From the NCBI RefSeq assembly GCF_030684315.1, contig NC_081369.1:9524035-9588034 (forward strand): 64,000 nt of DNA, given 5' to 3'. How positions within the stretch are numbered: position 1 is the first letter of the stretch; each line of letters begins with the position of its first letter. This stretch comes from Stegostoma tigrinum (Eukaryota). Under the pieces are notes generated by a model, which was not told the origin of the DNA, did not search any database, and worked only from the letters and a program-made list of their open reading frames with translations. Both the position numbers and the translations under genes were made by a program. Of the stretch, positions 1,577 through 51,000 are shown one piece after another.

Positions 1577-2086
1577 CAGGATACTGACAATATGTCTGGT
1601 GACGAATAGTAACAGCTTTGCCTCTGCATGTTTTGGTACTATATCTACACACACTGTTCAGATCCTACAAATATGCCATTTCATACTTTTCTGTCTAAAT
1701 TTTCAAAATGTTTTCTTGATATTGCCGAAAATGTGAGTGCTTCAGCTTATATGATATCGATTTCCATTTTAGACAATCCATTTCCTTGTTCAAAACATTT
1801 TGACTGCTTGTGGAGAATTGGTCTGTTTTCTTATCCCAATCCCAATATTCCTCTGTGCATAGCGTATTTTAAATTTAACCATGTTTGGGTTTGGTTCGTT
1901 ATATAAATTGCAGCCTCTCTAATATTCGGCGCTGAGGACAAGTCAGCACATTTCCTTTACTCAACAAGAAATTTTAGAGTAAGACAAAGTACTGACATAA
2001 AGAGGGAACGTTATTGACAAGTATCGTATTGTTAACAACAAACCTATCCTTAATAAATCTATTACAGGAAGATCAACCTCTTCTGA
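1577..2086 (+). pseudogene. Possible decayed hinge/TM exon plus short terminal exon of an upstream receptor gene
   Basis: An acceptor-like TTTATAGCAG is followed by an open frame ...ACFGTISTHTVQILQICHFILFCLNFQNVFLILPK and a GTGAGT donor at 1733. A phase-2 join to the acceptor at 2068 gives MKINLF*. The entry phase does not fit a normal phase-1 Ig junction. Confidence 0.3.
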
Positions 2087-2499
2087 GGAGAAAAAAGATG
2101 AAAAATCAGAAGTCTTTTAACTTTAACACACTTTGTTCAAGTGACAGTTTAATGAAAAAAAGTAAGAAATCACAAGTTATCCCATTTACTGTTCTGATTC
2201 AGTAATTAATCTACACACACCGAAGCTGCTCGAACTGACTGTCTTCCTTGAACCACTGCAATTGGCTGATTTCTCTTTACGATGATAATGACCTCGATTT
2301 CAAGAGAATCCTCTTTAGGAACCACTTCGCAGCGATAAAAATGACTTTTGATGGTCACCAACTCTCACACATATTTGGGAAGAGTTTCAAAGAAGGCAAG
2401 TGTAATAATTGGCTATTGCATTGAACGTTTTAGGAGGCTTACACTCAAATCTGAATATGAGTTTGCTACTTTAACATATTGAGGCAGTTCTTTGCAAGT

Positions 2500-2870
2500 T
2501 CGATTAACGAGAGGACACCTTATGAAAACATTAAGAAAGCGTTTCTTTGGGAACTTCACGGTACAACGCGAATGCGATGTTTGACTTCGCAAGAGAATTA
2601 GGACCAGAGGAGCATAATTTCAGGGTACAGGAATGGTCATTTAAGACACACATTAGATCTTTTTTTCATCCAGAGGGCAGTGAATCTCTGGAATTCTGTG
2701 CCACAGAGCATTACTGAGGCAAACTGAAGGCTGACACAGGCAGGTATCTGGACCAAGGGCTAAAGGAACATGGCAAAAGGAGAACTCGAGGATTAACAGG
2801 CCAACAATGATCTAATTGATTGGAATGATAGAGTCAATGGGTTGAATGGCTTAATTCGGCTGTTATGATT
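2500..2870 (+). mobile_element. CR1 LINE 3' fragment (old)
   Basis: Decayed RTRGH..FF.QRAVNLWNS-type ORF2 C-terminus followed by the CR1 3'UTR. Confidence 0.7.
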
Positions 2871-3703
2871 TATAATTGATTAAGTTTTGAGCAGGAGGAA
2901 TAGACAGACATGAGCATTTCATGAGAGAAAAAGCAAATACTGACATTACATGATGTAATAAAAATACACTTTAGCTATAGAAATTGGAGAAAATTACAGT
3001 CATGAAGTCCATCAAGGAAATTTTAAAGTTTCTATTGATTCTCCTTATGGAATAGGAAGAAAAGAATGTGAAGGTATTGATATGTCAATTGACATATCAT
3101 TGGGTGAAATGAAGTGGCAAATGCCACTTGGATATTGCCTCTGCAGAACAGATGGCAGATAGAATATTTGCAATTTTGTATCCCCATCGAAGAGGTTTAT
3201 ATGAATTGTGATGCAATGAGCAAGCTTGTATCGAGTGCATGCGTCTTAGTTCCTGAAGCATGCTGGCAAAAATATCGAAATCCAAAGACCGAAAATGTCA
3301 GGGATCAACATGAAACGACCTAGACACAATAGCCGACATGATGCTGTCACCATCTCAATATGGCATAAAAACAATTAATGTACAGCAGCATTGACTGGAT
3401 GAGTATGGAAGCGATGTATCTCCAAATAAAACACGAGACAAAGCATGTCCAGCAGGTGGTGCTAAGTGCTTTATATCTGGCCATTTGGAACAATCTAAGA
3501 AATATCATGAAGAACAACAACTGCAAAACCTCAGTGAAGAAAGGCCAGGGGAAAGAAAATCCAGTTTAATTGAAATGAATAAAAACAAATATCATTCCGA
3601 GGAATTACTGAGACAGGATAAGGAGAAAGACAACTTTCCTAGGTAAAGTCAAACAGAATGAAACCAGAAAATAGATCATCATCTTAAAGTCGCAGTTTAA
3701 TTT

Positions 3704-4006
3704 TAGATTACCTACAGTGTGGAAACAGGCCCTTCGGCCCAACAAGTCCACACCGCCCCTTGGAACATCCCACCCAGACTCATCCCCCTATAACTCACAC
3801 ACTCCTGAACACTATTAGCAGGGCGAATCCACCTAGCCTGTACATCTTTGGACTGTGGGAGGAAACCGGAGCACCCGTAGGAAGCCCACGCAGACACTAG
3901 GAGAATGTGCAAACTCCACACAGACGGTTACCCGAGGCTGGAATCGAACCCGGGTCCCTGGTGCTGTGAGGCTGCAGTGCTCACCACTGAGCTACCTTGC
4001 CGCCCC
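3704..4006 (-). mobile_element. HE1-type V-SINE, near full length
   Basis: V-SINE core TTTGGACTGTGGGAGGAAACCGGAGCACCC...GAATGTGCAAACTCCACACAG, with the tRNA head at the right end and a CR1-like tail at the left end. Confidence 0.9.
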
Positions 4007-4049
4007 AAAACGAGATTCCTCGAAGCTCAGCCCTAACCAGGGCAGTAAC

Positions 4050-4122
4050 TGGCTGCACCCGGAGTTGAACTCGGATCGCAGAGCTCAGAAGCCAGCGTGC
4101 TGACCACTATACCACAGCTGCC
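4050..4122 (-). pseudogene. tRNA-Gln(CTG)-like pseudogene or isolated tRNA-derived SINE head
   Basis: Minus strand reads GGCAGCTGTGGTATAGTGGTCAGCACGCTGGCTTCTGAGCTCTGCGATCCGAGTTCAACTCCGGGTGCAGCCA. A and B boxes and a CTG anticodon position are present, but the acceptor and anticodon stems have several mismatches. Confidence 0.55.
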
Positions 4123-4489
4123 AGATTCTGTCGTACAGGCAAGCACTTTACCATCGCTGATGTGTGTGACAGTCAGGCAAATTAATACAAAGATAACAAG
4201 ATAGACGTGTTGAAAATATAAATAGAAATAACTGAACATGAGTTAGAAGCCAATTCAGGGACATCTTTGCAGAGTGGCCACGTTTGGTAACTCCATATTC
4301 AAGGGTTTTCAGTCTCCTGGAAGAATAGGCAAAATTGTAAAGGAGATGAAGTAGTTTTGTTCACGAAGGCGAGTATCAGTGTACAACCTGGAGTGGATTC
4401 AGTTCAAGTGAAAATGCAAAATAGCACGGCAAAGACTTCATGGCTGGGGCTTTTCTACATGCCACTGATTTGCTTCACTATTGGGCATT

Positions 4490-5170
4490 TTGCGCTGTAA
4501 GTACAGTAGACTAGATTCGGAGAAGCGGTGCTTCACTTGGAAGGTGTGTCAGAGACCTTGGATATTGAGGAGGAAGGAAGTAAATGGTCAGGCATTACAC
4601 CTTCTGTGCACAAGATGAAGGGTCTAGGCCTGAAACGTCAGCTTTTGTGCTCCTGAGATGCTGCTTGGCCTGCTGTGTTCATCCAGCTCCACACTTTGTT
4701 ATCTGGCACGTAAGTAAGCGACTGGTTCTCGCATCCTGTTGAACGGAGTGGAAATGGCAGTTTACAGACCTTTGGGTGTGGGTTCTGGTGATCACAATGT
4801 CGTCGCCTCTACATTGCAGAGATTTTTTAATGATTGAGATTAGATTAGATTCCCTACAGTGTGGAAACAGGCCCTTTGGGCCAACAAGTCCACACTGCCG
4901 GTTGAAGCATCCCACCCAGACCCATCCCCCATAACCTGAAGCGCAGACTGAGGAATTGATTTGAAGAACATGTGCGTTTTGTCTGCAAAAATGATCTTGA
5001 ACTTGCTGTTGCCGATCACTTCAATACGCGAGTGTTCGCTTGCGAGTATCTTTGAATCGGGCTTGCTGCAGAGCTCCAGCGAAGTTATTGCAAGCTGGAT
5101 GAGTAACATCTCATTTTCTGTCTTGGGACACTGGAGCCCTCAGAACTCAATATAGACTTCAATCCTTTAA
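4490..5170. mobile_element. Nested Penelope-like fragments with an HE1 SINE 3' fragment (about 4838-4935)
   Basis: Penelope terminal repeat (GATGAAGGGTCTAGGCCTGAAACGTCAGC at about 4614) and decayed similarity to the Penelope body at 10.7-11.0 kb; HE1 tail GATTAGATTCCCTACAGTGTGGAAACAGG. Confidence 0.6.
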
Positions 5171-7711: not shown

Positions 7712-7766
7712 ATGCCAGCGAGGATGATTTTTTTCTGCCTGACACTACTCGAGTTTATTCTTGCTG
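7712..7766 (+). CDS. Exon 1, signal peptide MPARMIFFCLTLLEFILA
   Basis: ATG plus a hydrophobic core, 55 nt, with a phase-1 donor G|GTACTT that matches the phase of the V exon. Confidence 0.85.
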
Positions 7767-10700
7767 GTACTTTGGTTTTTGATTCACAGAACTGCTTTAA
7801 TTCATTAAAGACTTTCGATGCAGCTCCTCCTTCCATTAAATAATCTTAATTCATCTATCTTGTTAAGAACTTAACTCTCCTATCTTTATGCCGAATACGA
7901 CAGTTAACTATGTTTTATTTTGTTTCTGACAGCTGCGGACCACACTTGTTTTAGGGTTACTCAAATACCTAAAAGAGCAGCTGCGAACAGACGGGAAGAC
8001 ATTACCTTCTACTGTACATTCTCCATTTGTCAGCAAAGTTCAAAGCCAAATGTAATTTGGTGGAAGCAGGTTGGGAATGAACGTGTTCAGATTGAAGCCA
8101 GTGGTAGACAACAATTTGGATTTGAAAATGAAGCAACAGCGTTCCTTAGCTTGCTGCGCGTTGATATCCAAGATTCTGGACATTATCACTGCACGGTGAA
8201 TTACCAAGGAATCGGTCAAAGAAGCGGAACCCCGTCCCAGCTATTTGTGCGTGGTAAGTGAGAGCGACACTGTCTGAAATAATTTGAAATAACAAGATAT
8301 TTCCTGATCGCTGATTTCACCAATATTCGCGGTTAAATCGTGTCCAGTTATCATTTATACAGGAACCTACCCTTGATATTTCAGTTCCGTTGAAAAAAAG
8401 TAAAATTACACGATCAATATCACCGGTAGAAAACTGAAGCTTTTATAAATATTAACAATTTACGCTGTAATTCTAAAGACAGCCTATACACTATGTGCTT
8501 TTTGCCGATATACAAAACTTCCGATGTACATAGGCAACAAGAAACCGCTTTGTCAGGCTATTCGTCCACAATTCTTAGTCCCTGGTATGTTATTGAAGTC
8601 GTGTGACTGCCCGACAATTATTTTTTCTGAGATTGAAGATTCTAGAAATTTATTCTCACATTAATTTCACGTCATAATTTGAAAATCAGCATGAACTTAT
8701 TTCATGAGTGAAGGAATCGATGCAAAAGAAACACAGTTTGACAGATACAAGTAGGTACAATCACTGACCTAGAATAAATAAAACAACGCAGAGAATCTGT
8801 AGCAATAACAAATTTGCTGGAAAAGCTCAGCAGGTCTGGCAGCATCTGTGGAGGACAAAACAGAGTTAACGTTTCGGGTCCGGTGACCCTTCCTCAGAAC
8901 TTAAAGTTCAACTGATTCAATGTGTTTTGTCAATTGAAATGCCTTGTTTTTGAAATCCGACTGATACAGTGATCTTGGGGTAATCGGCAATCTGCAACTT
9001 CACCGCCGTTATGCACTTGAGCTTAAAAAAAACACCAGGGCAGACGAGCACAATTTGCTTTGTTCCTTTCTTGTGCGCAAGCTCAATTTAATTAATTTAT
9101 TCAAATATGCGACATAAGCATTGCGAAGCATTTTGTAGTTTTGTTCTGCCGAGGAAGGCCAAGTATTGGATTTGATAATTCAAGTAAAAATGGATAAAAG
9201 CCGCTGCCTGGAGAGCTATTTGTTTCATTAACTGAATGCTTGTGCATAAAATTAAGTTGAGAAGAAACTGCACTTCTGAGCATTGTATTTCTAGGAAAGC
9301 ATAGCGTCTGTAAATCAGCCTCAAATTTAACAATTTCTGATTTGTTCCAGTAACTTGGCTTTGTTCAATCTCTGCTTGCAGTTGCTCCAGTCCCACTGAA
9401 AATTACGCCCAAGTTTCACGAAGAAAATTCACTTGTGTCTTTGACCCTTCTGTGTGAAACAGCTGCATTTTATCCGGAGGATTTCACCCTCGCCTGGTAT
9501 AAAAACGGCACGAAAACTACAGTCGGTATAAATACGAGCAAGGTGCAGAACAGTGAGGGACTGTATGAAGTATCCAGTTCTTTGGTTGATCCTCATCCTC
9601 CCTCAAGTAATCTCAAGTATACCTGTGAAATATCTCACATCTCCCTCAAGACGCCTGCTGTTGTAACCCACAGTATTTCCACATTTGGCGGATTCCAAAA
9701 AGGCGAGTTAGTTGCTGTCAGTTTTGTTACGAAATGCATCGTAGAATAGTGCAACGTGTGGGCCTAATCCGCAGTGGTTTCATGGAGATGTATTTAAATG
9801 TATTATACTAAGTTGACATCTCTGTTGTAAGAGCATCAAAACTTATTTGGTATTCTATTTCTTTGACTTTTGAAATAGTAATTATGTTCAGAATTGAGCT
9901 GATCTATCCATTTGTTTCTTCCTATCATTTTGTCCACGTTCACCTTCTTTGCCCAAGCTATGCCTACCTCTTTGTAGGTTACGTGGCACAATCCCTCTTC
10001 TGTACCTACACTGGTCCTAAACATCACTTTTTCCTCTGTTACATTGATGACTGCATTGCCATCTCCTTGTGCTCCCATGAGGAGCTCGAGCAGTTCATCC
10101 ACTTCACCCACAGACTCCCACAGCTACCTGGAATACACCTCCTCCCACCCACCTTCCTGCAAAAATGCCATTCCCTCCTCCCAATTCCTTTGTCTCTGCC
10201 ACATCTGCTCCGAGGATGAGGCATTCCACTCCCGTACATCTCTGATGTCCTCGTTTTTCAAGGATCGCAACTTCCCTGCTCAATGGTTGAGAATGCCCTC
10301 GACGGTGTCTCCCGCATTTCCCACAACTCATCCCTCACACATCCTCCCTGCAAAAACAACCAAAACAGAATCCCCCTCATCCTCATGTACCACCTCACCA
10401 ACCTCCTGATCCAATGCATCATCTTCCGACACTTCCGCCATCTGCAATCCGACCCCACCCTTAAAGACGTTTTTCCCACCCTCATCTGCTTTTTGGAGGG
10501 ACCACTCTCTCCATGAATCCCTCGTCCGCTCCACACTCCCCTCCAGCGCTACCACACCGACACTTTTCCCTGCAACCACAGGAAGTGCTACACCTGCCCC
10601 TACACCTCCCCCTTCACCCTCATCTCAGGTCCCAAGAAGACTATCCACATCAAGCAGATGTTCACCTGCACATCTGCTAATGTGGTATACTGATCCACTG

Positions 10701-13700
10701 TTCCTGTTGTTGCCTCATCTACATCGGGGAAACCACGCGGAGGCTTGGGGACCACTTTGCAGAACACCTATTCTCAGTTCGCACTAAACAACTGCACCTC
10801 CCAGTTGCGAATCTTTTCAACTTCCACTCCCGTTCCGCAGGTGACATGTCCATCCTGGGCCTCCTGCAGTGCCGCAACGATGCTACCTGAAGGTTGCAGG
10901 AACAGCGTCCTATATTTCACTTGGGAACCCTGCAGCCCAATGGTATCAATGTGGACTTCACAGGCTTCAAAATCTCCCTCCCCCACTGCATCCCCAAACC
11001 AGTCACTTTCTGGATTACCCCAATCCAGAAATTGAAGTGGACAGTTGAGAAAATGCTTGTGATATCATTCCTCTAAATTTAAGAAAGCATAATTAGTAAG
11101 TAAGAAAGCTCGAGAACAACAGTATTTTGATTCATGGGGAATTGACTTATCTCATATTCCTACCTTTCCGAAACAGTCCTTTGTGTTCCATAAATTGACA
11201 ATCTATTCCAGAGATTGATTCAGAATTTGCCATGTTGGATCAAGAATTCACTTCGATATTTAACAGAAATAATCTTTGGCAGTTCAGCTTTTTCATTGTC
11301 CTTGAATAGCGCTGTGCAGTTGAAAGTATCATCACATTTTAAGCAAAGAACTAAAGTGACAATATTTTTAATTTAATGATCACATGCAAATAATGTCTTC
11401 TTTATCCTGCAGACAGTATCAACAATTCACTGGTCATCTGGCCTTCAGTTCGTTATGTGATTTTCTCGGCGCTTGTTGTAATTCTGTTCGTGTTTGGGAC
11501 TACAAAGTACTTGAGGATATCAGAAGTAAGGTCTACTATCAAAGCTTGCTTTTCGCACAGGGCCTGGGTTCATTTGCCATTTCTGGAAAACAAGCAGGAT
11601 ACTTATTAGGGATAATTCGAATTGGTTTAAGACTGAAAAATGCAATCATTTTGTTCTTTTTTCCCCCGCAAACGTGGATTGCTCCAAAGCCACTTAAAAA
11701 CACAAGAAGGTTCTTGGAAACATGAGTGAACCATTCAGCCCCTTTGGGCCTGTTCTGCCATTCAAAGAGATCATGGTTGATGAATGGCTTAACTCTATAT
11801 CCTTGTCCCTAAACACTTTGCTTAACAAAAATAAATCGATCCCAGATTTAAAATTAAAATTAACTTCTATTTGTTGAAAAGTCTTGCAAACATGTGCATA
11901 GAAGAGCTTCCTCACATCTTTCTTGAATGATCTTGTTGCAAGTTTTAGAGTATGACCACCAGTTCTAGAATCCACAACCAGCAGAAGTAGTATATGTTAC
12001 TGACAAAGTGTGAAGAGGGTCTTCGGTCCGCCTCCTCCTCTCTCCCTATTTATTTCAGAACCCTCACCCCATCCCCCTCTCTGATGAAGGGTCTAGGCCC
12101 GAGACATCAGCTTTTGTGCTCCTGAGATGCTGCTTGGCCTGCTGTGCTCATCCAGCTTCACACTTTGTTATTTGGATTCTCCAGCATCTGCAGTTCCCAT
12201 TATCACTGATACTATATTACTGACACTCTCTTTTGCTGTTAATGTCGTAAAGCCTTCAATTAGATCATCTCTCAACCTTCTAAATTAGAGAGAAAATAGT
12301 CTTAGTTTGTATAATCCCTCCATGTAATTAAATCCCTAAAGTCCACAATTATCATTCTGGTAATTGTACATCATACTCCTTCCAAGGTCAATGCACCTTT
12401 CCTGTGGTATGCTGCTCAGAACCGTTCACAGCTCACCAAAATGTTTTCAAATGTAAACAATGCTCACGTGTGTTAATTTCCAAAGGCACATTTCAGTTTT
12501 CAACATGAGAAATGAAATTTATCACAATAAATATGAAGTAGGTAATTCGATGCTTCTGTCAAGTAATGATTGCTCCTTGAAAGAATGGAGGATTAATAGC
12601 AGATTCTGATGTTGCAACCGTCTGATCTCTGCGAGCAACATAATCAAATGTATTCTGCCTCAACGGAACATTCACATCCTTTCTCTAATACTTTGATTCA
12701 GAAAAATGCGCTCATTTTCTGCATGGAAACTGAGTCAATATTTTCATCACTCAATGCAATTATATTTCATTGGTTTGCAGGTAAAGAAGAATGCACAAGG
12801 CAATCAGACTGCCATGTCAATGTGGTAAGTTCATATCATCATCATGCTTGGAGTTTGAAATGTTTGGATCAATGGCAATAATGGAAGAAATATACATTAA
12901 TAATGACAGAACATTTTATATCTATTTATTGAAAGACTATTCATCTGGTATGTGTGTGTTTCAGAGCCAGGTTTGAAGCGCAATTTGTACAACTTGTATT
13001 ACTGATGAAGGTTGGCAAGTGGATCTTCTTTAAAAAAAAACCGTAATCATATCTTTGAGAATGTTGCAAGGTTGAGTCACGTTTTAGGGTTGAGAACAAA
13101 TTTACTGTCTAAACCCATTGCATCTAACACTTAACATTATGTTTCAGCATGAATATGAGGAAGTTTGAATTGTTGCATTGAACACTGAGATTAACATTGT
13201 CTTCATGCAGATATATCTATAATATGGATTCTGCAAGGGATGTCGAGTCTTGGTTAAATATGCTTAGTCCTTGATGTAGAAAATCTTCGAGACAATGAAA
13301 AGGACACTTATTGAAGTGTTGTTCTTGTCCTCACAGGAAGCCATGGCGGAGGTTTCCTGCAATAGACTTAGGCAAAAACAGGAGAACTCCTAGACATACG
13401 TTTGAAATAGAGAAAAACATGCCTATTGAGGTAGGGCGGAGTGGGAGAACACAAAATCAGGATAAAATTGTGATTCAAGATAATAAAATGTGAGGCTGGA
13501 TGAACACAGCAGGCCAAGCAGCATCTCAGGAGCACAAAAGCTAATAAAATGTGAGGCTGGATGAACACAGCAGGCCAAGCAGCATCTCAGGAGCACAAAA
13601 GCTACTTGGCCTGCTGTGTTCATCCAGCCTCACATTTTATTATCTTGGATTCTCCAGCATCTGCAGTTCCCATTATCTCTAAAATTGTGATTCAGCCTGA

Positions 13701-13866
13701 CAATGAAGGCATTTGCTTCTATGGACATTAGCCAAATGTCATTTTGAAGCCTATTTTTGTGTCCTTCTGATGAGTGCTTTGCAGAAAGTTTATAAAAAAG
13801 GCCAATTAATAACATTTCCAAATAATATCTTTACAGCTCTCCATGTTGCTATCGGCAGTAAGATGA
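7712..13866 (+). CDS. Non-rearranging IgSF receptor: leader-VJ-C1-TM(Arg)-cytoplasmic tail, ~325 aa. Exons 7712-7766, 7933-8253, 9382-9702, 11413-11525, 12781-12824, 13337-13430, 13837-13866
   Basis: All seven exons have polypyrimidine-AG acceptors and GT (one GC) donors. Phases 1,1,1,0,2,0 give one continuous 978-nt frame, and two AATAAA signals follow. Exons 1-4 are well supported; use of exons 5-7 is less certain. Confidence 0.85.
7933..8253 (+). CDS. Exon 2, V-set Ig domain with germline-joined J-like G strand
   Basis: VTQ.P, ITFYC, VIWWK, LSLLRVDIQDSGHYHC, then SGTPSQLFVR. Acceptor TGACAG, donor G|GTAAGT, and no RSS interrupting the exon. Confidence 0.95.
8864..8901 (-). ncRNA. Minimal type I hammerhead ribozyme motif in a Penelope-like terminus (repeat spans about 8790-8901)
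   Basis: Minus strand reads AGTT-CTGAGGA-A-GGGTC-ACCG-GACCC-GAAA-CG-TT-AACT. The CUGANGA/GAAA core is intact, stem II is a perfect 5 bp, stem III is the palindrome ACGT and stem I is 4 bp. Confidence 0.75.
9382..9702 (+). CDS. Exon 3, C1-set Ig domain
   Basis: LTLLCETAAFYPEDFTLAWYKNG ... NSEGLYEVSSSL ... YTCEISHISL carries the canonical C1 signatures (FYP, W, YxCxxxH). Phase 1-1, ending at AAG|GCGAGT. Confidence 0.95.
9930..11010 (+). mobile_element. Penelope-like element fragment (RT C-terminus and GIY-YIG endonuclease) in intron 3
   Basis: Frameshifted motifs CPSYAYLFVG..FLCYIDDCI, TDSHSYLEYTSSHPPSCKNAIP.SQFL and NVVY..C..C...YIGET. Confidence 0.9.
11413..11525 (+). CDS. Exon 4, stalk plus TM helix with Arg (DSINNSLVIWPSVRYVIFSALVVILFVFGTTKYLRISE)
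   Basis: Acceptor TCCTGCAG with phase-1 entry, a ~22-aa hydrophobic run with an Arg codon at 11451-11453, basic stop-transfer residues, and donor GAA|GTAAGG. Not in the supplied ORF track in this frame. Confidence 0.88.
11700..12430 (-). mobile_element. CR1 LINE 3' fragment interrupted by a Penelope terminal repeat (about 12006-12210)
   Basis: ORF 11694..11975 (SRTGGHTLKL..F..DVRK). The insert is flanked by a duplicated TTACTGACA and carries CTGATGAAGGGTCTAGGCCCGAGAC. Confidence 0.75.
13478..13679. mobile_element. Foldback Penelope-terminus insertion with 15-bp TSD and internal 61-bp tandem duplication
   Basis: TAAAATTGTGATTCA occurs at 13463-13477 and 13680-13694. An exact 61-bp unit at 13482 and 13543 is followed by an inverted copy. 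Confidence 0.85.
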
Positions 13867-14083
13867 CATACAGTCCTCTAAAGTTCTCTGTTTCTGCGAA
13901 GAAGGCACAGAGATTGCTTGAGCTGCAGACTGAAAAACAAAACAAAGTAACAGAAGATATCCATGCACAAGCAAGAAATAACAAGGCTTAAATATTTCAA
14001 GGCAAAAGATTATTCTTGGACTTGGACTGATCACAATCGTTGGCACTTAGAGCTTCAGGCCTGCACAGTCTCACCTCTGTGCG

Positions 14084-14545: not shown

Positions 14546-17500
14546 CACAATTTTAACCGCACTGTGAAGCCTCTTCCAGGGATGCCTAACCTGAAGAAGT
14601 TACCTTCCTCTCTCTGGACCAACCTTAGGGAATCTCTCTCCAACTGCAACTCTCTTGTCCACCTATCTTCTCCTCTATCCATCTTCAGAAGTTGCTTGAA
14701 GCAATTGGCTGCCTCTCAGAGCTTCTTGCTTGCTCTTATTGCATTTGTCTAATCAGAATCTAGTTGCTTGCTGTCTGCATCCATGCCTTGCCTTGATTTG
14801 TACTGTGTTTGCAGAGCCACACAGCTACCTTGCAAGTGAATGCTTCATAGTCAATGAGGTACGCAACCTGTAATACGCAATGTGTGACATGAGTGTCGCA
14901 GCTGCGACTTGTGTCAGCAGTTTATGCACCAAACACACATCATGTGTAGCCAACAGGCAGCCATGTCTCAAAGTCAAAGGGAAAGAGACGGGTGCGACAT
15001 CCTTGGAGGTACCTATCAATTACAGTGACCCAGGAGAGTAATGAACAGCTGTCTCCCATCCCAGTCCAACCATCTGCGGAAGGTCAGGCGTTTGGCCAGG
15101 GTGGTGTTGGTCAGGGTCTGCAATCCGGGGACTGGGTTATGGTCAGTCCAGTGCCTCCATAGCACTTAGGACAGTGGGAAGTGCAAAAGACAGAAGGGAA
15201 GGCAGTGATATGAGAGGAGGACTTAATCCCCAGTCAGGATCACACTGGCATTTAGGGGTGAGAGGTGGGGAGTGAGAGACGGGTCTATGACCACTCCTGG
15301 CAAGGTCACCTCATATGGCAATGGTGTGGTGATGATCGTAATTGGCACAAGCAGACTCGAGAAGATGGGCTGCTTGTGGACCTCTGCAGGTGTAAAGCCT
15401 ATGGGGTTCATGAGATGGGCAAGCAGTGAGAGAATGCAGACGTTCAGAGGCTCACAAACGTTCAAATGGAATCTAGAAGCCATTGGCCTAGATTGATCAT
15501 TGACAGCTTCCATCCTAGTGGAATTTTAATGTGTGCAATGTGAAGCCAAATGGCAGAAAATTATACTTGGATGAAGTTCGTAAGTTTATTGAACTGTGAA
15601 GGAAGGGGCTGCAGGACTCACCAGTTTGAGACTTTTTAATTGGAAACTATATTACTTGCAGACCAATGAATGTTACAAGGCAGAGATTTGCAAACTCCTT
15701 GATCCTGGGCAATAGGCATGCACTGATCATACGTGTGAACTGTATGTCACTGTCTTGGATATGAATGATTAGCTTATTTATGCCAGCACCTTTGCACTCA
15801 GGTGCGAGGGTGTTAATATCGTAACATTTCACCTCGGGAGGCGACGGTATCAGCAGAACCCTGTGCTTAATTCTCAACTCTTCATTTTGTCTCAATAGTT
15901 TCCCTTTGTCTTTCTGCCCCTCCGACAGCTTGTCTGTGCTGTCCTTGGTAACATAATTGGGTGGAGCGTACCTGCTTGGCAATGGATTCCATTGACAATG
16001 ACGATTTGGGTCAGGCAATCCTGAGAGCATTTATATCTGATATGAATACCATTTCCATTGTATTGTTTGTACCTTGAGTAACTCAGTAGCACTGTAACAA
16101 TCATATAAATTAGAAAAATTGTTCATGGCATTTCAGTTACACATCTAAAAGGCACATATCGTTGAAACGTCAACATTGATGTTAGTCATTTTTGAATCTT
16201 ACGTCCCTGCTCATAGTTTTAATGAATAGTGAACTTCAATTTCGTGAAGCATTTGCATGTCCCAAAAGGCTTGAAACCATCTGATGGTATTTAACACATC
16301 CACTCACTTGCCACTTCGTGATGTGTTGCAACAATTTCGTCATAGCAAATTTTTATTCGCAACAATTAGATCATTCTGTCTCTGATATTCTTCACTGAAT
16401 TACCATATCTATGTAGGTTTGTAAGTTTCTTCTGTAGGTCTTTATGTGACCGAGTACGCTGCCTCATTCATGATTGGCAGAGTCTATGTGAACTCTCGAA
16501 TAACGATAACATAATTAGCAAAAACATCTGGAAAATAAATAATTGTCAAAGCTCAGTGGCAATAAAAATACAGTTGGTTGAATGCTGTCATAAGATAATT
16601 GATGTTTCCTTACATATATTCATAACATTTTCCAACTTCTTATTTGACTCTCTGAGATCCATTCAAGCTCATTCTCATACAACTAAGATCACTAATTTTG
16701 GCCTTTATCGTACTGAATATCTTCTCCAGCGTCAAGTTTCCTCTGTTGCTGAACCATCATCTGTGATTTAATTCACCTGTGCTCAACGATTCCAGTACAC
16801 ACATAGCTGAACTCCCATATTTTATCTTCTGTAAACTGCAGCTAAACCTTTGTTTTTAATGTTTTAACAAATATGGGAGGTATGCTGCTAGATATTTTGG
16901 CTCCCAGTCAAGTGTAATATTAATTTTACAATTCCTATCATCGTTAAAAACTGCCATTTAATTGCCTCTCCTCATCTCTCTAATTGCTCTACCACTGGCA
17001 GCTATCCAAAAATAGTCTCAGCATCTAAGTTATGGAAACATCCTTACATCTCTCCACTCTTATCATTGCGTTAATCCGTAAATGCTTTTTAAAAGGTACC
17101 CATTTCAACGAGTGTTTGGCAGTGTAACCTTACACACCCTGATTTGTTCAATCAATGCTTCGTTTTGTGTTCATTTGATCTGTTTTGGGAGGCTTAAACA
17201 TAGGTTTGTCTTCAGATATGCTTTCTTTCCACAGCTCTGAAAGGTCAACCGTGTGAAACCTGAATGGCTCACAAAATAAACAACCTCTTCAAAGAGAGGC
17301 ACGTGTGCTTACCGCTAAACTACTGCTGACCATGTATTCTCCTTATGGGTAACAGAAGCCCATTCTTAAGGTAATTTGGTCAACCAATTGAATTTGCGAC
17401 AGCACAAGTTCGCTGTAAAGTGTGGACATTTAATTTACTGACACCATTATTTTTCGATTATGAAAATTTATTCTTATTTTGTCAATATAACCTCTGGAGT

Positions 17501-24780: not shown

Positions 24781-24789
24781 TCAGATTGA

Positions 24790-33030: not shown

Positions 33031-33412
33031 ATGTTGGGCATTGTGTTTGATTTTCATTACTGTCTCTTGGAGCCATGTTTTGATTATGTTTGGCTGTTGC
33101 AGAAATATTTCTTTCGTTCCCCTTGAATTATCTTAAATTTTTTTCCTATTATCTCCACTTCTTTGGAGAATAGCTGACTTTTGTTGGAAGATGATGATTT
33201 GCATACATAGATGCTTAATTAGCAACTTCCCTTATTTTGATTGATCTTTCTAGTGTGTACTGGTCTCCATGCTGCAGTAACCGCTACCTGCTACAAATTG
33301 ACCATGGAACGCAAAATGCTGACTGAGCAATGTCTAATATCCCTTCAGAATTCCCATGGGTATTTTGGTGCATCACACAACTTGGGCACAGGAACACATC
33401 ATTTAGTCCAAA
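33031..33412 (+). pseudogene. Leader plus internally deleted VJ exon pseudogene
   Basis: Leader relic M/WALCLIFITVSWSH (33031-33077). The exon from 33254 reads VCTGLH, then NRYLLQIDHGTQNAD*AMSNIPSE(D)SHGYFGASHNLGTGTHHLVQ after allowing frameshifts. This gives D/E/F strands and a GxGT J motif, with the F-strand Cys codon changed to GGT. Confidence 0.6.
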
Positions 33413-35338
33413 GATCAATGCTCCACATATATTTCCTCACATTACTTCATCTCATCTCACCAGAACCAGATCCTTCTATTTCCTGCTCCTTTATACTTAG
33501 CTAGTTCCAACTTAAATATATCATTTCACATCGTTGAACCACGCCACAAAAAGCTTAATTATCCCTTTTGCAATATTTTCTAACAGATATATATCAAGTG
33601 AAAAAAAAAATAAAGTTTGGGAAATTTTGTCTTCTCCTTGTCATCCCTTTTGGCGCTAATCAGGAAATGAATCTTCAATTGCTGGAGAACTTCAGGACAA
33701 TCTAGGAAAGTTGCCAATTCTCAGGTATTCTAATTTTGCTTCTGTTTGGATGAAAAATGACCAAGTACCGCCTTCGTTACGAAAGACTTGAATATTGGAA
33801 AGCTCAAAATAAAGGAAGTTAATATTAAAATTACAACATTCTGTGCTAACACACACTCAGCAGCGCCTGAAAAGCTCAACACAATCCACTAAAATTAAAA
33901 TGAGAAACATAATTGCTGGATATTTGAAATAAGTGAAAATTATAGAAGATTATGGAGATATCGGTGAAGATCTGAAAAATAATAGGTCGGTTTGATTTTC
34001 GCCATCCTAATTCCCCCTTCATTTTAGGGACTCGTTGAAAACTGTTTGGAAATGTTTCATCTTCTGAAATTCTACAATTGTTAATCCTGCTTCATTTTAT
34101 GGTGGTTATTTCATATAGTCTTTTCGAGAGCTTTCTCTTTCAGTTCAGTTTTAGTGACATGATTTCCTCATGTTTCTGTTTACAGCAAGGGCTGTTCTCT
34201 ATTTCAAGCAAATCCCGTCCTTATATCAAACAATGTTTGCGAAGCCTGAGGCGTGATTTGATAAACAATTAAAATCAGTAAGACTAAAACTGTTTCAGAA
34301 GACATTACCACGTATGGGGCTGCAGGTCTAGAGGGCATAAATACGAATCCTACGGGTAACTCTGGAGAAACTTCTTCATCTCGAGAGTGGAATGTAGAAT
34401 TCCTTACCATACGTTGAGGTGAATAGAATGGGTACATTTCACAAGAAAATCTATTTGAATGGACGAAGGAAATTTTAAGAGAATTTTCTTTCAAAAGATT
34501 TGGAAGGTGGCTTGTACGGAGCATAAACATGTGGACTGATTCGTCCGAATGACGTGCTTTTGATGAAGTAAATTGTAAAAGCACACTGAAACAGTGAATG
34601 CAAAAGATGGTGTGTAAGAAGTCTGAGTAATGGTGGGACCTGAAATGTCCCCATTGTTTGAATTACTTCTCTTTTAATCGAAAAATTAAGTCATTTCTCC
34701 CTTTGCCTTCCAGTCTGTTGGTGAGAGGAGTAAATGGGCGTGTGCATGTGCTTGATGAAGGGGTTGCTTGCATATTTTGCTTAGTTCAAGTTTAACCCTT
34801 CCGTTCTGAGGTAGCTGGCCGAAAAGTATCAAGGGTTACGGTGGCGTTACCAGGTATTTTGAATTGGTATTGAGGAAATTCCACGTTGGGTGGAGGTGGG
34901 GGTACTCCAGTGTGTGCAGCTTTTGTGAAGCATTAGGTGTGAAAATCTTCTGTCTGGAGTTAGCACAACACACTCGTGAGTAAAGGAATTTTGGCTGGAA
35001 AACACAGTTCGTTCCTTTTTCTTTCTTAGTACACCCCGAGACACCTATTGCTGTCACAAAAAAACGTAAACATTGACTTCAGTTACAGATAAAAAAAATT
35101 CAGTGTGTGCTACAAAATAAAACCGCTGTTATTTCTGCTTCCAACGCATATCATGATCTGTAGATCTTGCCTACCAACTCAGCATTGAAACCACAAGACA
35201 TGCAAGCGTGATGGTGAATGATTGCACTTCACATGAGCTTGAGAGAGTGAAAAAAAAAGTGATCGCCCTGGCCCTGCCGTCCAGCTCAAACCAGCCGGGG
35301 ATCTGTTGCTCAGCTGGGGTTAGGTTCAAACTATCAGT

Positions 35339-35950
35339 ACGTCCCAAGAAACACAACTTCACCCTATTCTCACCTTGATCCTTCCTTGTACAGGTACATG
35401 TCTTCAATTCAACAACTGCTAGATAGAAAAAGCTGTAAAATGTGTAGGTGATATTAACTATGTATGGGCATGACTATTTATGCTGATGTTGCGACAAGCT
35501 CTTTATGGAGTTTCTGGCCTTTCAGTGGAAGGGATACATCTGTGCAATCATAACTGCTGCTCCTGAGCCCTAGTTGTTCCCTTGTTTGCTGCTACAAGTT
35601 CCCGACACTCTGTCGTTCTCTTGTAAATAAATGTTTCGTATTTTTGTTTGTTTTTGCAACAGTTGCCGCTCGTATGACTCAATTTCTGCGATCGCCCAAT
35701 GTAACAGTAAGACAGACCGTGACTTTTCACTGCTCGTTGCTGCTATTCCGAGGTAGGAACCAAGTCGTGGTGCATTGGTGGAAAGCTGGTGACCAGGAAT
35801 TCTTGAACTCAAAACAAGATTCCTGGAGAGTGTTTCACATTGAGAACGAAGCCAGCGCAAACCCACAATGTGCGTTTTAGAAATGTTGGCATCTGTTATT
35901 GCAGTTTGAACAGACTGGAAATGGAATCGGCATACAGCTGAATGTAAGCG
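35339..35950 (+). pseudogene. Leader plus VJ exon pseudogene, paralog of the 7712 gene
   Basis: A 55-nt leader (35339-35393) starts with ACG and ends G|GTACAT. The V exon (35663-35950) reads MTQ..VTFHC..VVVHWWKAG..FHIENEASA / HNVRFRNVGICYC / GNGIGIQLNVS with two frameshifts and a mutated donor G|GAGAGT. Confidence 0.85.
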
Positions 35951-38927: not shown

Positions 38928-41499
38928 CTTTTCAAAGGACAGTTGCCTTCTCTTGTGAGCCCTAGAGTCTTTCTTTGAGTAAGATGGCCAAAGCTGTATG
39001 CAGTACCTCAGGTCCGAGCTGATCAGTGCCCTTTGTAGCTGTGGGAAGGCATTTTTATTTCAGACTTAATTAAATAATTGAATTTAAATCCATACTTTTG
39101 TATAATCTGTCCTAACTTAGTTGTCTGCTTTGGCTATTACACGAGCTGCCTGCTTGAAGTACGAATCTCAGAAGATGAGAACAGAGAGGCACAACAAATA
39201 ATTGACATAATAATTTGTAATAAGTGGCAATTAAAAAAAAAAAAACAGCACAGGCTACGGGTAACTGAGAAATGCTGTCTTCCTATCCATTCAAATTCTT
39301 TCAAGTCACAAAAATGCACTATGTAATTGAAATCAGTGGATGGTGCTCCTTTATGAGATTTAGTGTGTAAATATCGTTGCCATACACTAATCACATAGCA
39401 TAAGCAAACAGGAACAATCAGCTTTAATGTTTGATTGCACTTACTATTACAGGATTAAGATTTAATAATTTAGCAAGCAAAAGGTAAAATAAATTCCCAG
39501 TTACAATAGCCATGTGTTTTCTTACCTTTCCCATGATCTTCTAAAGCTATTTGGCAAGTCCATATCAGTAGTTATAGAACATAGAATAATACAGCGCAGA
39601 ATGTCCTTAAATTTTAAATTAATTTAGACAGAATCTGTCATCAGAGATTTAAGACACAGAAGCTCTGAAACATAATGTGGTCCCTCAAGGAATTGTAAAG
39701 GATTCCTTGATCTTTTTATAAACAAGAGCAGAGGAAGTCTCGCAGTGTCCTGGCCACCACATTTCTCTCAACTCATCTTGTTGAGGCAAATGAACGTACT
39801 TTTATCCAGGTGAATGCTCTGGAAAAGAACATTTTCTTTATTTGAGCATTGAATACATCCAATTCAAATATGATGCGGATAATATCAAAAGCGTAACTGT
39901 CTTACCTCCATCTTTAGAAAAGTGCCATCATCAAAGCATTAACTCACCAGTTTTTTTCACTGCTGTTCATGTGGAATGTGTAAATTTTAAAACAAATCAA
40001 TTGCTATGCTAATTGTTTTGGTGCACAGCATACAGGAGCTAGAATCAAATGTTCAAACCCACAACTCGGCTACTTAAAGAGGAAGTTCACGGATTTGAAG
40101 TTGTAGCCTGGTCCATATTGGAATATTGAATATCTGATGTGTTTTTGTACAGGCAGTTTATACTGCTTATACTTCACAACATCATCTGTATAGTGCCATC
40201 AGTACAAACTGGGATATTGAAGTTCATTAAGCACCTGTCGATCTAAAGCATGATCATTTTCCTTCTAAAATTAAATTTCTTTTTTTTTGTGTGCCTCTTG
40301 CAAATTGTAGTCCCAATGCATCCATTCTTTGCCGGACGTACTTCTGTGTAGCAACATCTTTCTTATTACTGATTAGTCTTGCACATTTACAGTAGTTGTA
40401 AATGCTGAAAATATAAAGGTAAGACAGGCGTATAGTTACATTAATAGTTGGATTTCTAGACCTAATATTAATGAGTAATGTAAATACACAAATGATATCA
40501 AGTAGAAAAGTCACTTGAAACTAAAATTAATCTGCAGTAACTCATTTTTGGAAACAAATGCATTCCTTAACCTTGTAGTTCACATTCAATTCAACTTATT
40601 TTTGAGTTCATCAGAGTATAACATTACTGTTGTAAACATCAAGAACATCCAGATTAGATGAGCGCATTTACAGGCAGAGAAAAGTTCCTCCCACAGTCTG
40701 CACTGATATCATACAACTCAAAGGGTCAGAATTCCAGGTGCCGATGCAGGCAAGATTAGTCGTGGGAAACGCAGATGACTTGTCAGTTTTAGAGTTCCAC
40801 TAGATTACATTGCTATTTCTCAAGTAAATGTAGTGCTAAAGTAAGTGGAAAAATGTAAACCTTCAATAAACAATAAGAACACTAGAACTAGGGGCAGTCA
40901 TAGGCCATCTGGTTTGTATGGCCTGCTTTGCCACTCAATAGAATTATGACATATCTTGATTTTTTACTTTATCTTTCTGGTAGTTCACCTAATAGCTTGA
41001 TTCCATGAAACACCAAAAATCTAGCTTTAAACATTTTTGAAGATGCCACACCCACAACCCTCTGGGAAGAAAATTCCCAATATTCAAAACCCATACTGAG
41101 GAATCACTATGGGAAACAGCCCGTTTAAAATTTATGCAAACGGAGAGCTAGGCACAGAACTCTTCCATCACCTACAAATGCATTCATCTTAAAGTAGCCA
41201 TGTACAGGGATAGTAATAATGAGTTGTATCCTAACGTTAGGCTGGGCAGCTTTTGCTACCTACATGCAATTCAGGCCTATGATAAGATGGTAACATAGTA
41301 TAGAGAACATTGCAGGCAGCATCATGACAAATTAGTTTGCTATCATACGAGAGAGTAATACTTTCATGGAGAGATTCCGCAGAATGCTTGTGGTACAGAA
41401 GGTTCTGAGTTTTTGTATGTACGAATCAAAAATAATTAACACACGGATACAAAGATAATTAGAATGTTCTCCCTTATTGTGAGAAGTGTGGAGTGTAAA

Positions 41500-45170: not shown

Positions 45171-45269
45171 AGATCTGATAAGATGCTAATGTTACACATT
45201 TTAACAAATTAAACATAGTGATACTTGGTTTATAGATTAATGTATGAATTCATAATGCAGTTATGCAAA

Positions 45270-46163: not shown

Positions 46164-46409
46164 CTCCCAAATATGATATTCCAAAGACGCAATGCATTTG
46201 AAGATCTGCAGCAATAACAGTGAATCTGAAATGCAAAATGAAAGGTTGAAATCAAAGCAGTACTCTAGTGCGAGCCGTGAACTCAGACAAAACATCAAAT
46301 GTTAACCAACCTGCATCAAAATGTAAGAATCAGTGTAAGAATAGGAGGGAACTTGTGCATCCCAGATGGTTGAAGAAGAAATCTGAAGTGTATTCCATAA
46401 CAGCCATAG
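46164..46409 (+). pseudogene. Decayed C1-set exon
   Basis: Strong acceptor TTTTCCTTCCAG with phase-1 entry: APKYDI..TVNLKCKMKG*..AVNSDKTSNV..ELVHPRWLKKKSEVYSITAIG. Contains stops and lacks the Trp strand. Confidence 0.45.
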
Positions 46410-47249: not shown

Positions 47250-47480
47250 AGAATTCCTACTGTGTAGAAATAGTCCCTTCTGGTCAACAATTCCACACCA
47301 CCCCTCAGAGCATCGGATCCAGACCCACCCCACTTAATCTATACATCCCTGAAAACTACGGGCAGTTTAGCACGGCTAATCCACCTGCCCTGCACATCTT
47401 TGGACTGTGGGAGAAAACCGAGGAAACCCATGCAGACTAGGGGAGAATATACAAACTCCATACAGATAGTTGCCCAAGAA
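47250..47480 (-). mobile_element. HE1-type V-SINE, 5'-truncated
   Basis: V-SINE core TTTGGACTGTGGGAGAAAACCG...CAAACTCCATACAG. Confidence 0.85.
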
Positions 47481-47499
47481 CTTCTACTCCCTGATCAGG

Positions 47500-48170
47500 A
47501 AAATGTGAAGTTGTTCATTTTGGGATAATGAAAATGTGTATTATAAATACAGAAATAATGGAGAAATCTACAGCGGGGAGGGGTCCAGGTGCTCTGATTC
47601 ACAAATGAAAAATGGTAATGCAAAGATACAGCAAGTATTCAAGACCAATGGAATGGCATCCTTCACTATGAGAAAAAAAGTTAACATTAAAGTAAGCATG
47701 TTATGCATCGGTTACTTAGGGCATTTATAAGACCACATTTCAAATGCAATGTGTAATTTTTGTCTCTTTATTTAAGGGTGTAAGCATGTAAGTACATTGG
47801 AGATGGTTCTGAGGAGATTTAACATATTGACAACTTTCAACGCCGATTGTCCTTTGGGGATATATCGGACAGGCTGGGCTTGTTTCCTCCAGGGTTTAAA
47901 AGAGCGAATGTCACTTTATTAAAGCTAATTCGTTTTTTCCTGGGATGGGGTTGTGTAACTCTGGTAATCTCTGTCTTAGAAATTAGTCACCAGTGTCATT
48001 GCATATATTTTTAAGTGGAGTTAGGTAGATTCTTGTCAGACAAAGAAATCAAATGCAATCGAGAGGAGATAGCATTGTGGAATTTAAAGCAAGGAAACCA
48101 GCCATTAACTTATTGAGAGGTGAAACACATTTGAGGAACTGATTGGGCTTCCGCTACAATTTCATACAAG
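47500..48170 (+). mobile_element. Old CR1 LINE fragment
   Basis: IQQV.KTNGM..F and IRPH...V.F.S motifs, decayed. Confidence 0.6.
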
Positions 48171-50459
48171 TGTACATTCTTATTTTCATACAACATTTGG
48201 AACATCATGAGCTCTTTCGTATCCAGTGCGCAGAATTCAGCTGATTATTCAGCTACTTTGCATTGTGCATCATTTCATGCTCCAGTCATTTACACTTTGT
48301 AGAATTTCATTTTCTTTTTATGTTCAATTGATTAATTTGTACGCAGACTTATAATATCCATGCACATCACTGCCTAGAATCTTCTACCCTTTATTTTCAG
48401 TATGCAGGATCTAATGCTCAATATTTTTAACACATTCAACTATGAATTTCTGTGTCCTCACCAAATTCACACATTCTATTGCATTCAAAAGCTGAATGAT
48501 GCAACTACTTACATTGCTGTGATAAAAATCATATTATGTGATTATGTTAACTTAATATTCAAGCCTAATTAAAATAATTTTTGAACAACATGTTGACCTT
48601 AACAAAGAGTTCAACAAACAGACCACATGGATTTATTTCAGCAGAATAATTAGAAAGGAGATGACAAAAGATTGTTTTCACCCCGAGGCCGGTAAGAATC
48701 TTAATATCACTGCTAGTAAGTGTGGTTGAGACCAGCAACTTACACACTTGAAAAGTCTTTGGATGTCTGTTTTAACACCTATAACCTGCAAGGCAAGTGA
48801 ACACATGCAGGAAGGTGTGATAATGCTAAGGAGCTTCTCGTTGACTGGCACAGACAAGATATGCACTGATGTTTATCAGTTGCTTGAGTCGTGTCTTATG
48901 ACAATACTGCCTGGTTCTTGCCTCCAAACATTAGAACTCACGTTCTCTGGCCATTTACTGTTAATTCATTCTTAACATGACTCCTGAGGGCCTGGTGCCT
49001 TGTAACATAATAATGCTAGCCTCCTGCCTATCCCCGTCACTACTGACCCCAGCAATGCAGTTTTCAACTTGGAATCCTACCTCCTTTTCAATCATTTCAT
49101 CTCCTCTGATGTTATTCAGTGAAACCACTGTGAAAGAGTGGAGAGCTGACTGTACCGCATGAGTTTAGCATGATTCAGTTCAGCTTCAGGCTGAATGCAG
49201 ACAAAACAAACAGTCTTGGGAAAATCATTCAGCTTCATGCTATAGTCATGCTAATAAAGGTCTCTGGTGGAATGGGTTTGGGTAAGTCATGAGGCCTGTA
49301 CCCGAGCCTTGGGGAAGAAAATTGTTCAGCCATAAAAAAAAACTCAACATTTGGAAATTTGCAGATCAAGGTGTCAAAATCTTAAATACAGCTTACTACA
49401 TTTTAAAAAAGCAGGTTCTAAACTAGATATTACTGTATATTATAATGCTAGTGAATCAATTCCCTTCAGCATACATACTGAAGCCATTTGTAATGATGAG
49501 GCTAAGAACTTAATTCATTCACAAAACATATTGTCTTCCCATATCATAAGGAACGTCAAGAGTAATTGCATCTCTCTTTGCTTCTCCACACAGAAAGGTG
49601 ACATGTGGGGATAAGATATTACACGATTAAATTTACTTGAGTAGCATTGCTCTTGACTCAGTGTTGGCAATCAATATCATGTGACACATCAATAATGTGT
49701 GCTGTTATTGTCAATCTTGGCCTTGTTTCCTTTTAAGTGTTTTCATTGAATGGAAAATTTGTCGTTTGGTTACTTTTAGATATGTTGGCGCTGTAAGTAA
49801 ATGAAACCACCTGAAATATTTCAGTTATTGTGTGAAATTAGTAGCATGAGAGATTGTGCAATTCTAATGGTTTTCAAAATGTGTTGTGCAACTGAGCAAT
49901 TGTAGGTCAGATATGAAGCTACTGCTTCCTGCCATTCTACTCCAAAGACTGACTGATAAAAATCACGAAGGCATGTTTCTAACCTCGAAGGGTATGCAAT
50001 AATACTTAGCTTATTGTTTTAATGGAGAAATTTGTCATGTCGTAGCTTAACTTAAGCCCAACATAATTAGGATCTTCTGCATCAAGATTACCAATCTAAC
50101 TTGAATCATCAGCTTATACATTAGACACCGTATAGGGTGCCCAATGAATGTTCCCAACCTCGTTGATCAGTTGCAAATTACTGTAATACTCGGTATATGT
50201 ATTATCAGATGTGTTCATTTTTAGATTGAAGAACAAACAAAACACAATAGAGTACTGAATAGAGTACAATTTTCTGCAACTTAAATAAAAAAAACTCTCG
50301 ATTCTGCAAATCATATGTTAGTTATTTTACATGGAACGTGCCTTCACTTTCACAGAATTGGATTGCACTGTGACGATGCTGAAGTTCAGGCAAATTGAAT
50401 AAGTAAGTAGACAAACAAATAAGTTAATAAGTAAATGTTACAGCAAAATATCTGCAAGT

Positions 50460-50730
50460 GGAGATAATAGGAACTGCAGATGCCAGAGAATCCGAGATAA
50501 CAAGGTAAAGAAATGGATGAACACAGCAGGCCAAGCAGCATCAGAGGAGCAGGGAGGCTGACTTTTTGGGCCTCGACCCTTCATCAGAAAAGGGAGAGGG
50601 AAAGAGGTTTCTGAAATAAATAGGGAGAGAGGGGGAGGCAGATTGAAGATGGATATAGGAGAAGACAAGTGGACTTTGCCCCTGCAGTGGTCGAGAATGC
50701 CCTCGACCGTGTCTCCCGCATTTCCCTCAA
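50460..50730. mobile_element. Penelope terminal repeat joined to a short inverted internal piece
   Basis: GATAATAGGAACTGCAGATG...GACCCTTCATCAG terminus, then GAGAATGCCCTCGACCGTGTCTCCCGCATTTCCC, which matches 10290-10325. Confidence 0.75.
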
Positions 50731-50836
50731 CATATATCGCTGGAAAACTCAGGGTATCATGGGCATTTGATTGGAGCCGTATATTAAGAGGGCAACTGAG
50801 TCCCACATGAAGGCTTGATTCAGAGTGGTCTCTCAC

Positions 50837-51000
50837 CTCTTCCACATATATGGTAATAGAGCTTTGAATAAAGATCACTTATGCTGAGGAACATAGGCTG
50901 TAAGCCTCCTCTTTGGTACTTCTCCATGCAATAGTAGCCATTGGGCAGTCTTCAGTATCTTCAATAATCTGGAAACCCAAACAGTAGCCGTCCATTCCAC
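50837..51000 (-). pseudogene. Possible V-domain 3' relic
   Basis: Frameshifted TATVWVSRL / EDT / GYYCM (YYC at 50928-50936) and SITIYVE ending at a GTGAGA donor. Confidence 0.3.

What the first reader, a model, noticed from the sequence alone, without database searches (positions are those of the whole stretch)
1577..51000. The window is a birth-and-death graveyard of VJ(-C1) receptor genes on both strands
Seen: besides the intact gene there are at least three recognisable pseudogenes (16.3-21.5 kb minus, 33.0-33.4 kb plus, 35.3-36.0 kb plus). Weaker V, C1 and TM relics lie at about 1.6, 31.7-32.8, 44-46.4 and 50.9 kb. The V relics differ from each other (WWK-type, DRFSG-type, NRY..GTGT-type), so several subfamilies are present. 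Inference: this is a rapidly turning-over innate receptor complex, analogous to LRC/NITR clusters but built from antigen-receptor-like domains. Automated annotation would probably report only one gene here.
Basis: partly seen in the sequence, partly recalled or inferred. Interest (0 to 1): 0.75.

Follow-up and report, generated by a model that had tools for sequence, protein, structure and literature searches.

The report
Shark antibody-like paired receptor cluster edge

Summary
Partly confirmed. The window (zebra shark by protein identity) holds three members of one cartilaginous-fish family of germline-joined VJ-C1-TM receptors, all on the + strand. Gene A (7.7-14.0 kb) has intact leader, V and C1 exons, but it is not fully intact. 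Its J motif is altered, its TM exon carries an Arg, and its ITIM tail exons are broken. Pseudogene C (V exon, 61.1 kb) was not listed. The minus-strand gene at 16.3-21.5 kb and the relics at 1.6, 31.7-32.8, 44-45.8 and 50.9 kb stay within background under three profile methods. 33.2-33.4 kb is unresolved. The birth-and-death reading holds at family level. In 13 species two or more members share one scaffold length, and inhibitory and Arg-TM types coexist. Zebra shark has near-identical copies of gene A, one modelled with three ITIM-like motifs. The V domains form their own clade, apart from SIRP and NCR3. I found no description of the family in ten literature searches, but several key papers were not readable.

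The parts
7712..7766 (+). Gene A leader exon (ATG at 7,712; second ATG at 7,724), GT donor
   Evidence: matches the P0003 N-terminus
7933..8253 (+). Gene A single-exon VJ domain; J-like GxG altered to GTP; no RSS
   Evidence: 57 of 60 family V rows keep GxG
9382..9702 (+). Gene A C1 exon with a GC donor; the frame reads on to a stop at about 9,749 (247-aa RefSeq model)
11413..11525 (+). Gene A TM exon: canonical splice sites, open, hydrophobic, Arg near its start; ends in phase 0 while tail exon 1 needs phase 1
   Evidence: sequence; profile support weak (p 0.07-0.11)
12781..12824 (+). Gene A tail exon 1 (10/16 identical to P0221)
13337..13430 (+). Gene A tail exon 2, frameshifted where the first Tyr motif lies in relatives
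13837..13991 (+). Gene A tail exon 3: one Tyr motif kept, the last removed by an 8-codon gap; not reached in frame by any TM-containing splice tried
35339..35393 (+). Pseudogene B leader exon, ACG at the start position
   Evidence: (0 of 200 local shuffles reach the score)
35663..35950 (+). Pseudogene B VJ exon, two frameshifts, donor GA; P0175/P0180 subfamily
40311..40418 (+). Pseudogene B TM exon, frameshift and stop, Cys-rich end
   Evidence: (1 of 200 shuffles)
46164..46370 (+). Pseudogene B cytoplasmic exon, two stops; no Tyr-motif tail in this subfamily
61089..61403 (+). Pseudogene C VJ exon, several frameshifts and stops; no other exon found before the window ends
33180..33425 (+). Unresolved possible V relic of another type; not counted as a gene
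   Evidence: suggestive; negative

Best explanation
The window carries three + strand members (one with an intact ectodomain but broken inhibitory tail, two pseudogenes) of a cartilaginous-fish family of germline-joined VJ-C1-TM genes that likely act as paired inhibitory and activating leukocyte receptors and likely turn over by tandem duplication and decay. SHOWN: exon structure, lesions, family membership, a separate V clade, ITIM-type and Arg-TM-type relatives, near-identical zebra-shark copies. INFERRED from known paired-receptor biology: inhibitory members recruit SHP-1/2 through ITIMs, and Arg-TM members signal through an ITAM adaptor. Gene A most likely descends from an inhibitory gene that lost its ITIMs. 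It would make a non-inhibitory product: a secreted V-C1 (read-through at the GC donor, 247 aa, or TM skipping, 265 aa) or an Arg-TM membrane form. That product would share ligand with the ITIM-bearing copy P0221 (210 of 213 ectodomain residues identical).
For: Family: single-V relatives from sharks, rays and chimaera. In 13 species, two or more different members carry the same longest-contig length, which suggests one cluster chromosome per species. Of 85 distinct post-C1 sequences, 36 hold at least one ITIM-like motif, and 7 aligned members share a mid-TM Arg with short tails. V tree: the 36 family rows form one clade, 98/90, apart from NCR3 (100/92) and SIRP (100/99). Turnover: B is a dead paralogue of intact P0175, in a subfamily that includes ray and chimaera rows. 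Four distinct near-identical zebra-shark proteins under six accessions differ from gene A by 3-10 of 213 residues. Gene A's V and C1 (642 nt) carry no stop or frameshift, while the TM end and tail exons 2 and 3 each carry a lesion. Contigs from 2 samples of 1 study span tail exons 1-2 with 0-2 differences and 0-1 gap, so the lesions are unlikely to be assembly errors. Near-identical ligand domains on divergent signalling parts are the pattern described for other paired receptors (PMC3210942, passages).
Against: No expression, splicing, ligand or adaptor data. Gene A also has an altered J motif and a GC donor, which fit early decay equally well. P0221 is a predicted model and could be a chimera of two loci (its TM exon is only 10/37 identical to gene A's). 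Near-identical RefSeq copies could partly be uncollapsed haplotypes. Equal contig length shows one scaffold, not tight clustering. Only 2 relics in 64 kb are supported.
Confidence: 0.7

Rival explanations
1. Gene A is simply a young pseudogene multiplied by segmental duplication, so the window holds three dead genes of different ages and no functional product.
For: Lesions at the J motif, C1 donor, TM exon end and two tail exons; RefSeq stops the model at C1.
Against: Leader, V and C1 are open in all four near-identical proteins. C1 is 52-62% identical to six other-species members, about as conserved as those members are to each other (58-74%). Lesions concentrate in the tail.
Confidence: 0.3
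2. One reading: five or more relics of several V types on both strands.
For: Motif-like stretches are visible at 17.7, 20.9 and 33.3 kb. The 33.1-33.4 kb frame hits antibody VH in register. TM detection is weak, and no Ig/TCR V profile was available.
Against: 0 of 180 interval-profile tests exceed the background maximum. The method that gives relic C about 100 bits gives 14-18 at these sites with the family V profile. Pfam found Ig families only in the 35.6 kb frame among 30 frames (it also missed relic C).
Confidence: 0.12
3. The family is the shark orthologue of tetrapod SIRP or PRARP rather than a separate lineage.
For: RefSeq names many members SIRP-like. SIRP clusters are the top language-model neighbours (0.97). 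SIRP-alpha and UrIg2 are among the top three PDB hits of the family profile.
Against: Shark and SIRP V domains do not group. SIRP V scores only 10-31 bits on the family profile. One C1 here versus two in the 11 SIRPs examined.
Confidence: 0.25

Closest known systems
SIRP family (SIRPalpha/beta/gamma)
   Same: Joined VJ plus C1 domains, non-rearranging, clustered; ITIM-tail and charged-TM members (SIRP signalling classes recalled; ITIM-like tail visible in P0205).
   Different: V-C1 rather than V-C1-C1; separate V clade; WWK C strand; Arg rather than Lys in the TM (SIRPbeta Lys recalled); CD47 binding untested.
NCR3/NKp30
   Same: Single-exon VJ domain with a GxG G strand (named among joined-VJ genes in PMC11599192, passages).
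   Different: Separate clade; NCR3-clade proteins here are V-only repeats; in horn shark and Mobula hypostoma they lie on a different scaffold from this family.
UrIg / UrIg2 (PMC12227049, parts 1-4 of 8 read)
   Same: Non-rearranging VJ plus C1 in elasmobranchs; UrIg2 is the second PDB hit.
   Different: UrIg has 3 and UrIg2 9-11 C1 domains, with expression in liver and gill; the family here has one C1, ITIM or Arg-TM ends, and many copies.
PRARP and Xenopus VJC1 genes
   Same: VJ-C1-TM with Tyr motifs (architecture recalled; the names are cited in PMC10751288, passages).
   Different: Described from tetrapods and bony fish as few-copy genes (recalled); no sequence was available, so the relationship is untested.
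NITR, LRC/KIR, PIR, Ly49 paired-receptor clusters
   Same: Birth-and-death turnover, paired signalling types, homogenised ligand domains (PMC3210942, passages).
   Different: Those use V/I, C2 or lectin domains (recalled), not VJ-C1.

Membership tests
Chondrichthyan VJ-C1-TM family (RefSeq 'SIRP-like/tapasin-like') | V domain inside the family clade | tested here: met
   A in the 98/90 clade; B and C placed inside it
Chondrichthyan VJ-C1-TM family (RefSeq 'SIRP-like/tapasin-like') | Leader, single VJ exon, C1, TM, tail exons | tested here: met
   Gene A has all of them, tail broken; B lacks a detectable C1
SIRP | V domain groups with SIRP V | tested here: not met
   with mammalian SIRPs only; 108 columns, deep forks unresolved
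SIRP | V-C1-C1 ectodomain | tested here: not met
   One C1 in gene A and nearly all members (P0080 has a repeated C1); two C1 in 11 of 11 SIRPs
SIRP | CD47 binding; synteny with the tetrapod SIRP locus | not testable with these tools
   No genome held
NCR3/NKp30 | V in the NCR3 clade | tested here: not met
   clade anchored on a frog protein named NCR3
NCR3/NKp30 | Same chromosome as shark NCR3 | tested here: not met
   Horn shark 99.65 vs 74.47 Mb; Mobula hypostoma 80.6 vs 199.0 Mb
UrIg/UrIg2 | Three or more C1 domains, one or two genes | tested here: not met
   One C1 exon in the window; multigene family
PRARP / VJC1 | Orthology by tree and synteny | not tested
   No sequences retrieved; papers not held
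Rearranging Ig/TCR | Split V and J with RSS | tested here: not met
   No RSS in the window at <=1 heptamer and <=2 nonamer mismatches; V and J-like end in one exon
MHC class II beta (RefSeq name of gene A) | Peptide-binding domain before C1 | tested here: not met
   The N-terminal domain is Ig V/I-set
Activating paired receptor (gene A) | Charged TM residue and no ITIM | tested here: inconclusive
   Arg present and no Tyr motif in frame, but the Arg lies near the TM start, and expression and adaptor binding are unknown

The most novel reading that the evidence does not exclude
Cartilaginous fish carry an undescribed, roughly 400-million-year-old paired-receptor complex built from antigen-receptor-like VJ-C1 chains, a shark counterpart of the LRC/NITR/SIRP clusters. 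Zebra shark shows it in the act of making an activating or decoy partner: an ITIM-less, Arg-TM or secreted copy with a 99% identical ligand domain, amplified to several copies.
Probability: 0.3. Interest if true: 0.75.

Novelty: new variant of a known kind. Interest (0 to 1): 0.48.

Why it matters
The papers I read list NKp30, UrIg and UrIg2 as the non-rearranging VJ genes of sharks (PMC10751288, PMC12227049) and do not mention a large VJ-C1 ITIM/activating family in the passages seen. RefSeq scatters its members under MHC II, tapasin, SIRP, B7H6 and Ig-lambda names. If the family is undescribed, it supplies candidate NK or myeloid inhibitory and activating receptors for the oldest jawed lineage. 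It also adds a light-chain-shaped VJ-C1 lineage that trees of antigen-receptor origin should include. The pseudogenes in this window are ordinary by-products of such a cluster.

Tried and rejected
No whole genome is held, so synteny could not be tested. No RNA holder was listed; this says nothing on expression. Read depth cannot give copy number and was not used. Pfam on 30 frames was too blunt: it missed true relic C. PDB phmmer gave relic C only E 1.4, so PDB hits at E about 0.05-1 cannot decide 33.3 kb either way. 17.66-17.73 kb minus resembles a V end (19 bits, the best non-relic hit for one subfamily profile) but scored 14 on the DNA profile; rejected. A 36-bit C1 background value gave no new hit on re-run and most likely leaked from the real C1 exon. 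45.4-45.6 kb minus C1-like (21 bits) lies within the shuffled range. No C1 exon for B was found in 36.0-40.3 kb (best 15 bits, shuffled median 15-16). The fold search of a family model (P0021, pLDDT 75) returned antibody Fab chains, mostly light chains, at about 20% identity and rmsd about 9.5: generic V-C1 only. A language-model test of the 33.3 kb stretch was not obtained. Ten literature searches (one search failed) found no description of the family. Ohta 2019, Dornburg and Yoder 2022 and Flajnik 2023 were not held; Kinlein 2021 and Fu 2019 were not looked up. The elephant-shark genome paper had no relevant passage in its main text or its one held supplement file. Earlier findings of the scan: none.
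Full report
Source and gene A. The V exon at 7,933-8,253 is 100% identical to P0003, a Stegostoma tigrinum RefSeq protein named 'H-2 class II beta chain-like'. Pfam shows Ig V/I-set plus C1-set instead. Exons with splice sites are: leader 7,712-7,766, VJ 7,933-8,253, C1 9,382-9,702 (GC donor), TM 11,413-11,525, and tail exons at 12,781, 13,337 and 13,837. No RSS was found in the window. Its J-like GxG is GTP, whereas 57 of 60 family rows keep GxG. The TM exon ends in phase 0 while tail exon 1 needs phase 1. Tail exon 2 is frameshifted at the first Tyr motif, and tail exon 3 lacks 8 codons over the last one. None of the TM-containing splice paths tried reaches the remaining Tyr motif in frame. 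Only a direct C1-to-exon-3 splice does, and it has no TM. Contigs from 2 samples of 1 study carry the same tail region with 0-2 differences.

The family. Searches returned single-V, single-C1 relatives from sharks, rays and chimaera; 108 of them were used as queries. In 13 species, two or more different members share one longest-contig length. This suggests one cluster chromosome per species but does not prove tight linkage. Of 85 distinct post-C1 sequences, 36 have at least one ITIM-like motif, and 21 were scored as having no TM, some by threshold error. Seven members share a mid-TM Arg with a short tail. A third type has a Cys-rich tail without Tyr motifs. In a 77-row V tree the 36 family rows form one clade (98/90), separate from NCR3 (100/92) and mammalian SIRP (100/99); deeper forks are unresolved. 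Zebra shark has four distinct near-identical versions of gene A's ectodomain under six accessions. One of them, P0221, differs at 3 of 213 residues and is modelled with a neutral TM and three ITIM-like motifs.

Testing the relics. Three methods were used, each with shuffled, reversed or rest-of-window controls: a frameshift-aware protein profile, back-translated nhmmer and a gap-tolerant DNA profile. All three find V exons only at 7.9, 35.7 and 61.1 kb, and a C1 exon only at 9.4 kb. With the DNA profile the three V exons score 162, 110 and 100, against a shuffled maximum of 28. Pseudogene B is one gene: leader 35,339-35,393 with ACG at the start, V 35,663-35,950 with two frameshifts and a lost donor, TM 40,311-40,418, and tail 46,164-46,370 with two stops. 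No C1 exon was found for it. It belongs to the subfamily of the intact zebra-shark gene P0175, which also has ray and chimaera members.

What did not hold. A few reached p 0.01-0.03 (for example 50.9 kb), as expected from that many tests. The DRFSG stretch at 20.9 kb gave no Ig hit in PDB. The 33.1-33.4 kb frame hit six antibody heavy chains in register (best E 0.07), and the next frame has a J-like end. Decoy frames reached similar E-values on unrelated proteins, so I leave it open at about one in four (my estimate). TM-only relics cannot be excluded, because the TM profiles barely see gene A's own TM exon, and no Ig or TCR V profile was available.

Mechanism. Shown: architecture, lesions, subfamilies, paralogue turnover, and both signalling types in the family. 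Inferred from known paired-receptor biology: ITIM members inhibit through SHP phosphatases, and Arg-TM members activate through an ITAM adaptor. Gene A keeps 642 nt of V and C1 free of stops and frameshifts while the tail has three lesions. I read it as a former inhibitory gene that now would make a secreted or ITIM-less product sharing ligand with P0221. PMC3210942 (passages) describes both the recurrent origin of activating receptors from inhibitory ones and the homogenisation of ligand domains. The main rival is that gene A is a young, amplified pseudogene. Without RNA data the two cannot be separated (one search listed no RNA run).

Comparison and novelty. The family works like SIRP, NITR or LRC clusters but failed the SIRP, NCR3 and UrIg tests that could be run; PRARP and VJC1 were not testable. 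Papers seen: PMC12227049 (parts 1-4 of 8 and term searches), PMC10751288, PMC11599192 and PMC3210942 (passages), and PMC3964593 (term search of the main text and one supplement file). None of what I read mentions this family, and the literature searches found no description. Subscription papers most likely to mention it were not readable, so 'undescribed' is provisional. Verdict: observation partly confirmed, interpretation partly supported, interest 0.48.

Noticed in passing
window 61,089-61,403 (+): Unlisted V pseudogene exon of the same family, third subclade; any further exons would lie beyond an RT-like repeat at 62.9-64 kb.
   Followed up: yes
P0221 (XP_059507523) vs window 7,933-13,991: Ectodomain 210/213 identical to gene A but with a different TM exon and an intact three-motif tail: either a true inhibitory partner or a chimeric gene model.
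   Followed up: partly
window 8,393-8,690: Contigs in 3 of 4 laid runs carry a diverged copy of this intron piece (35 differences, 5 gaps), pointing to an older paralogue with near-identical exons elsewhere.
   Followed up: no
window 14,787-14,816 (+): Scores like a B-subfamily leader (29 bits) but has no proper donor or following V exon; unexplained, possibly composition.
   Followed up: partly
window 39,207-39,254 (+): Resembles the end of an inhibitory-type TM exon (27.7 bits vs shuffled maximum 25.2), but it rests on a poly-A run and was not among the top DNA-profile hits.
   Followed up: partly
P0145, P0175, P0178, P0223: An old subfamily (shark, ray, chimaera) with a Cys-rich juxtamembrane region and a CxxC tail motif but no Tyr motif; signalling unexplained.
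   Followed up: no
P0189, P0195, P0202, P0059: Turtles and squamates have multi-VJ-domain receptors, some with a similar Arg-TM short tail, annotated as pIgR-like; they form a separate V group.
   Followed up: partly
window 10.0-11.0, 18.9-19.9, 22-24, 25.4-27.3, 51.9-53.5, 55.6-57.5, 62.9-64 kb: Transposon remnants (LINE/RT-like, Gypsy-like and Penelope-like by inspection of ORFs; not tested).
   Followed up: no
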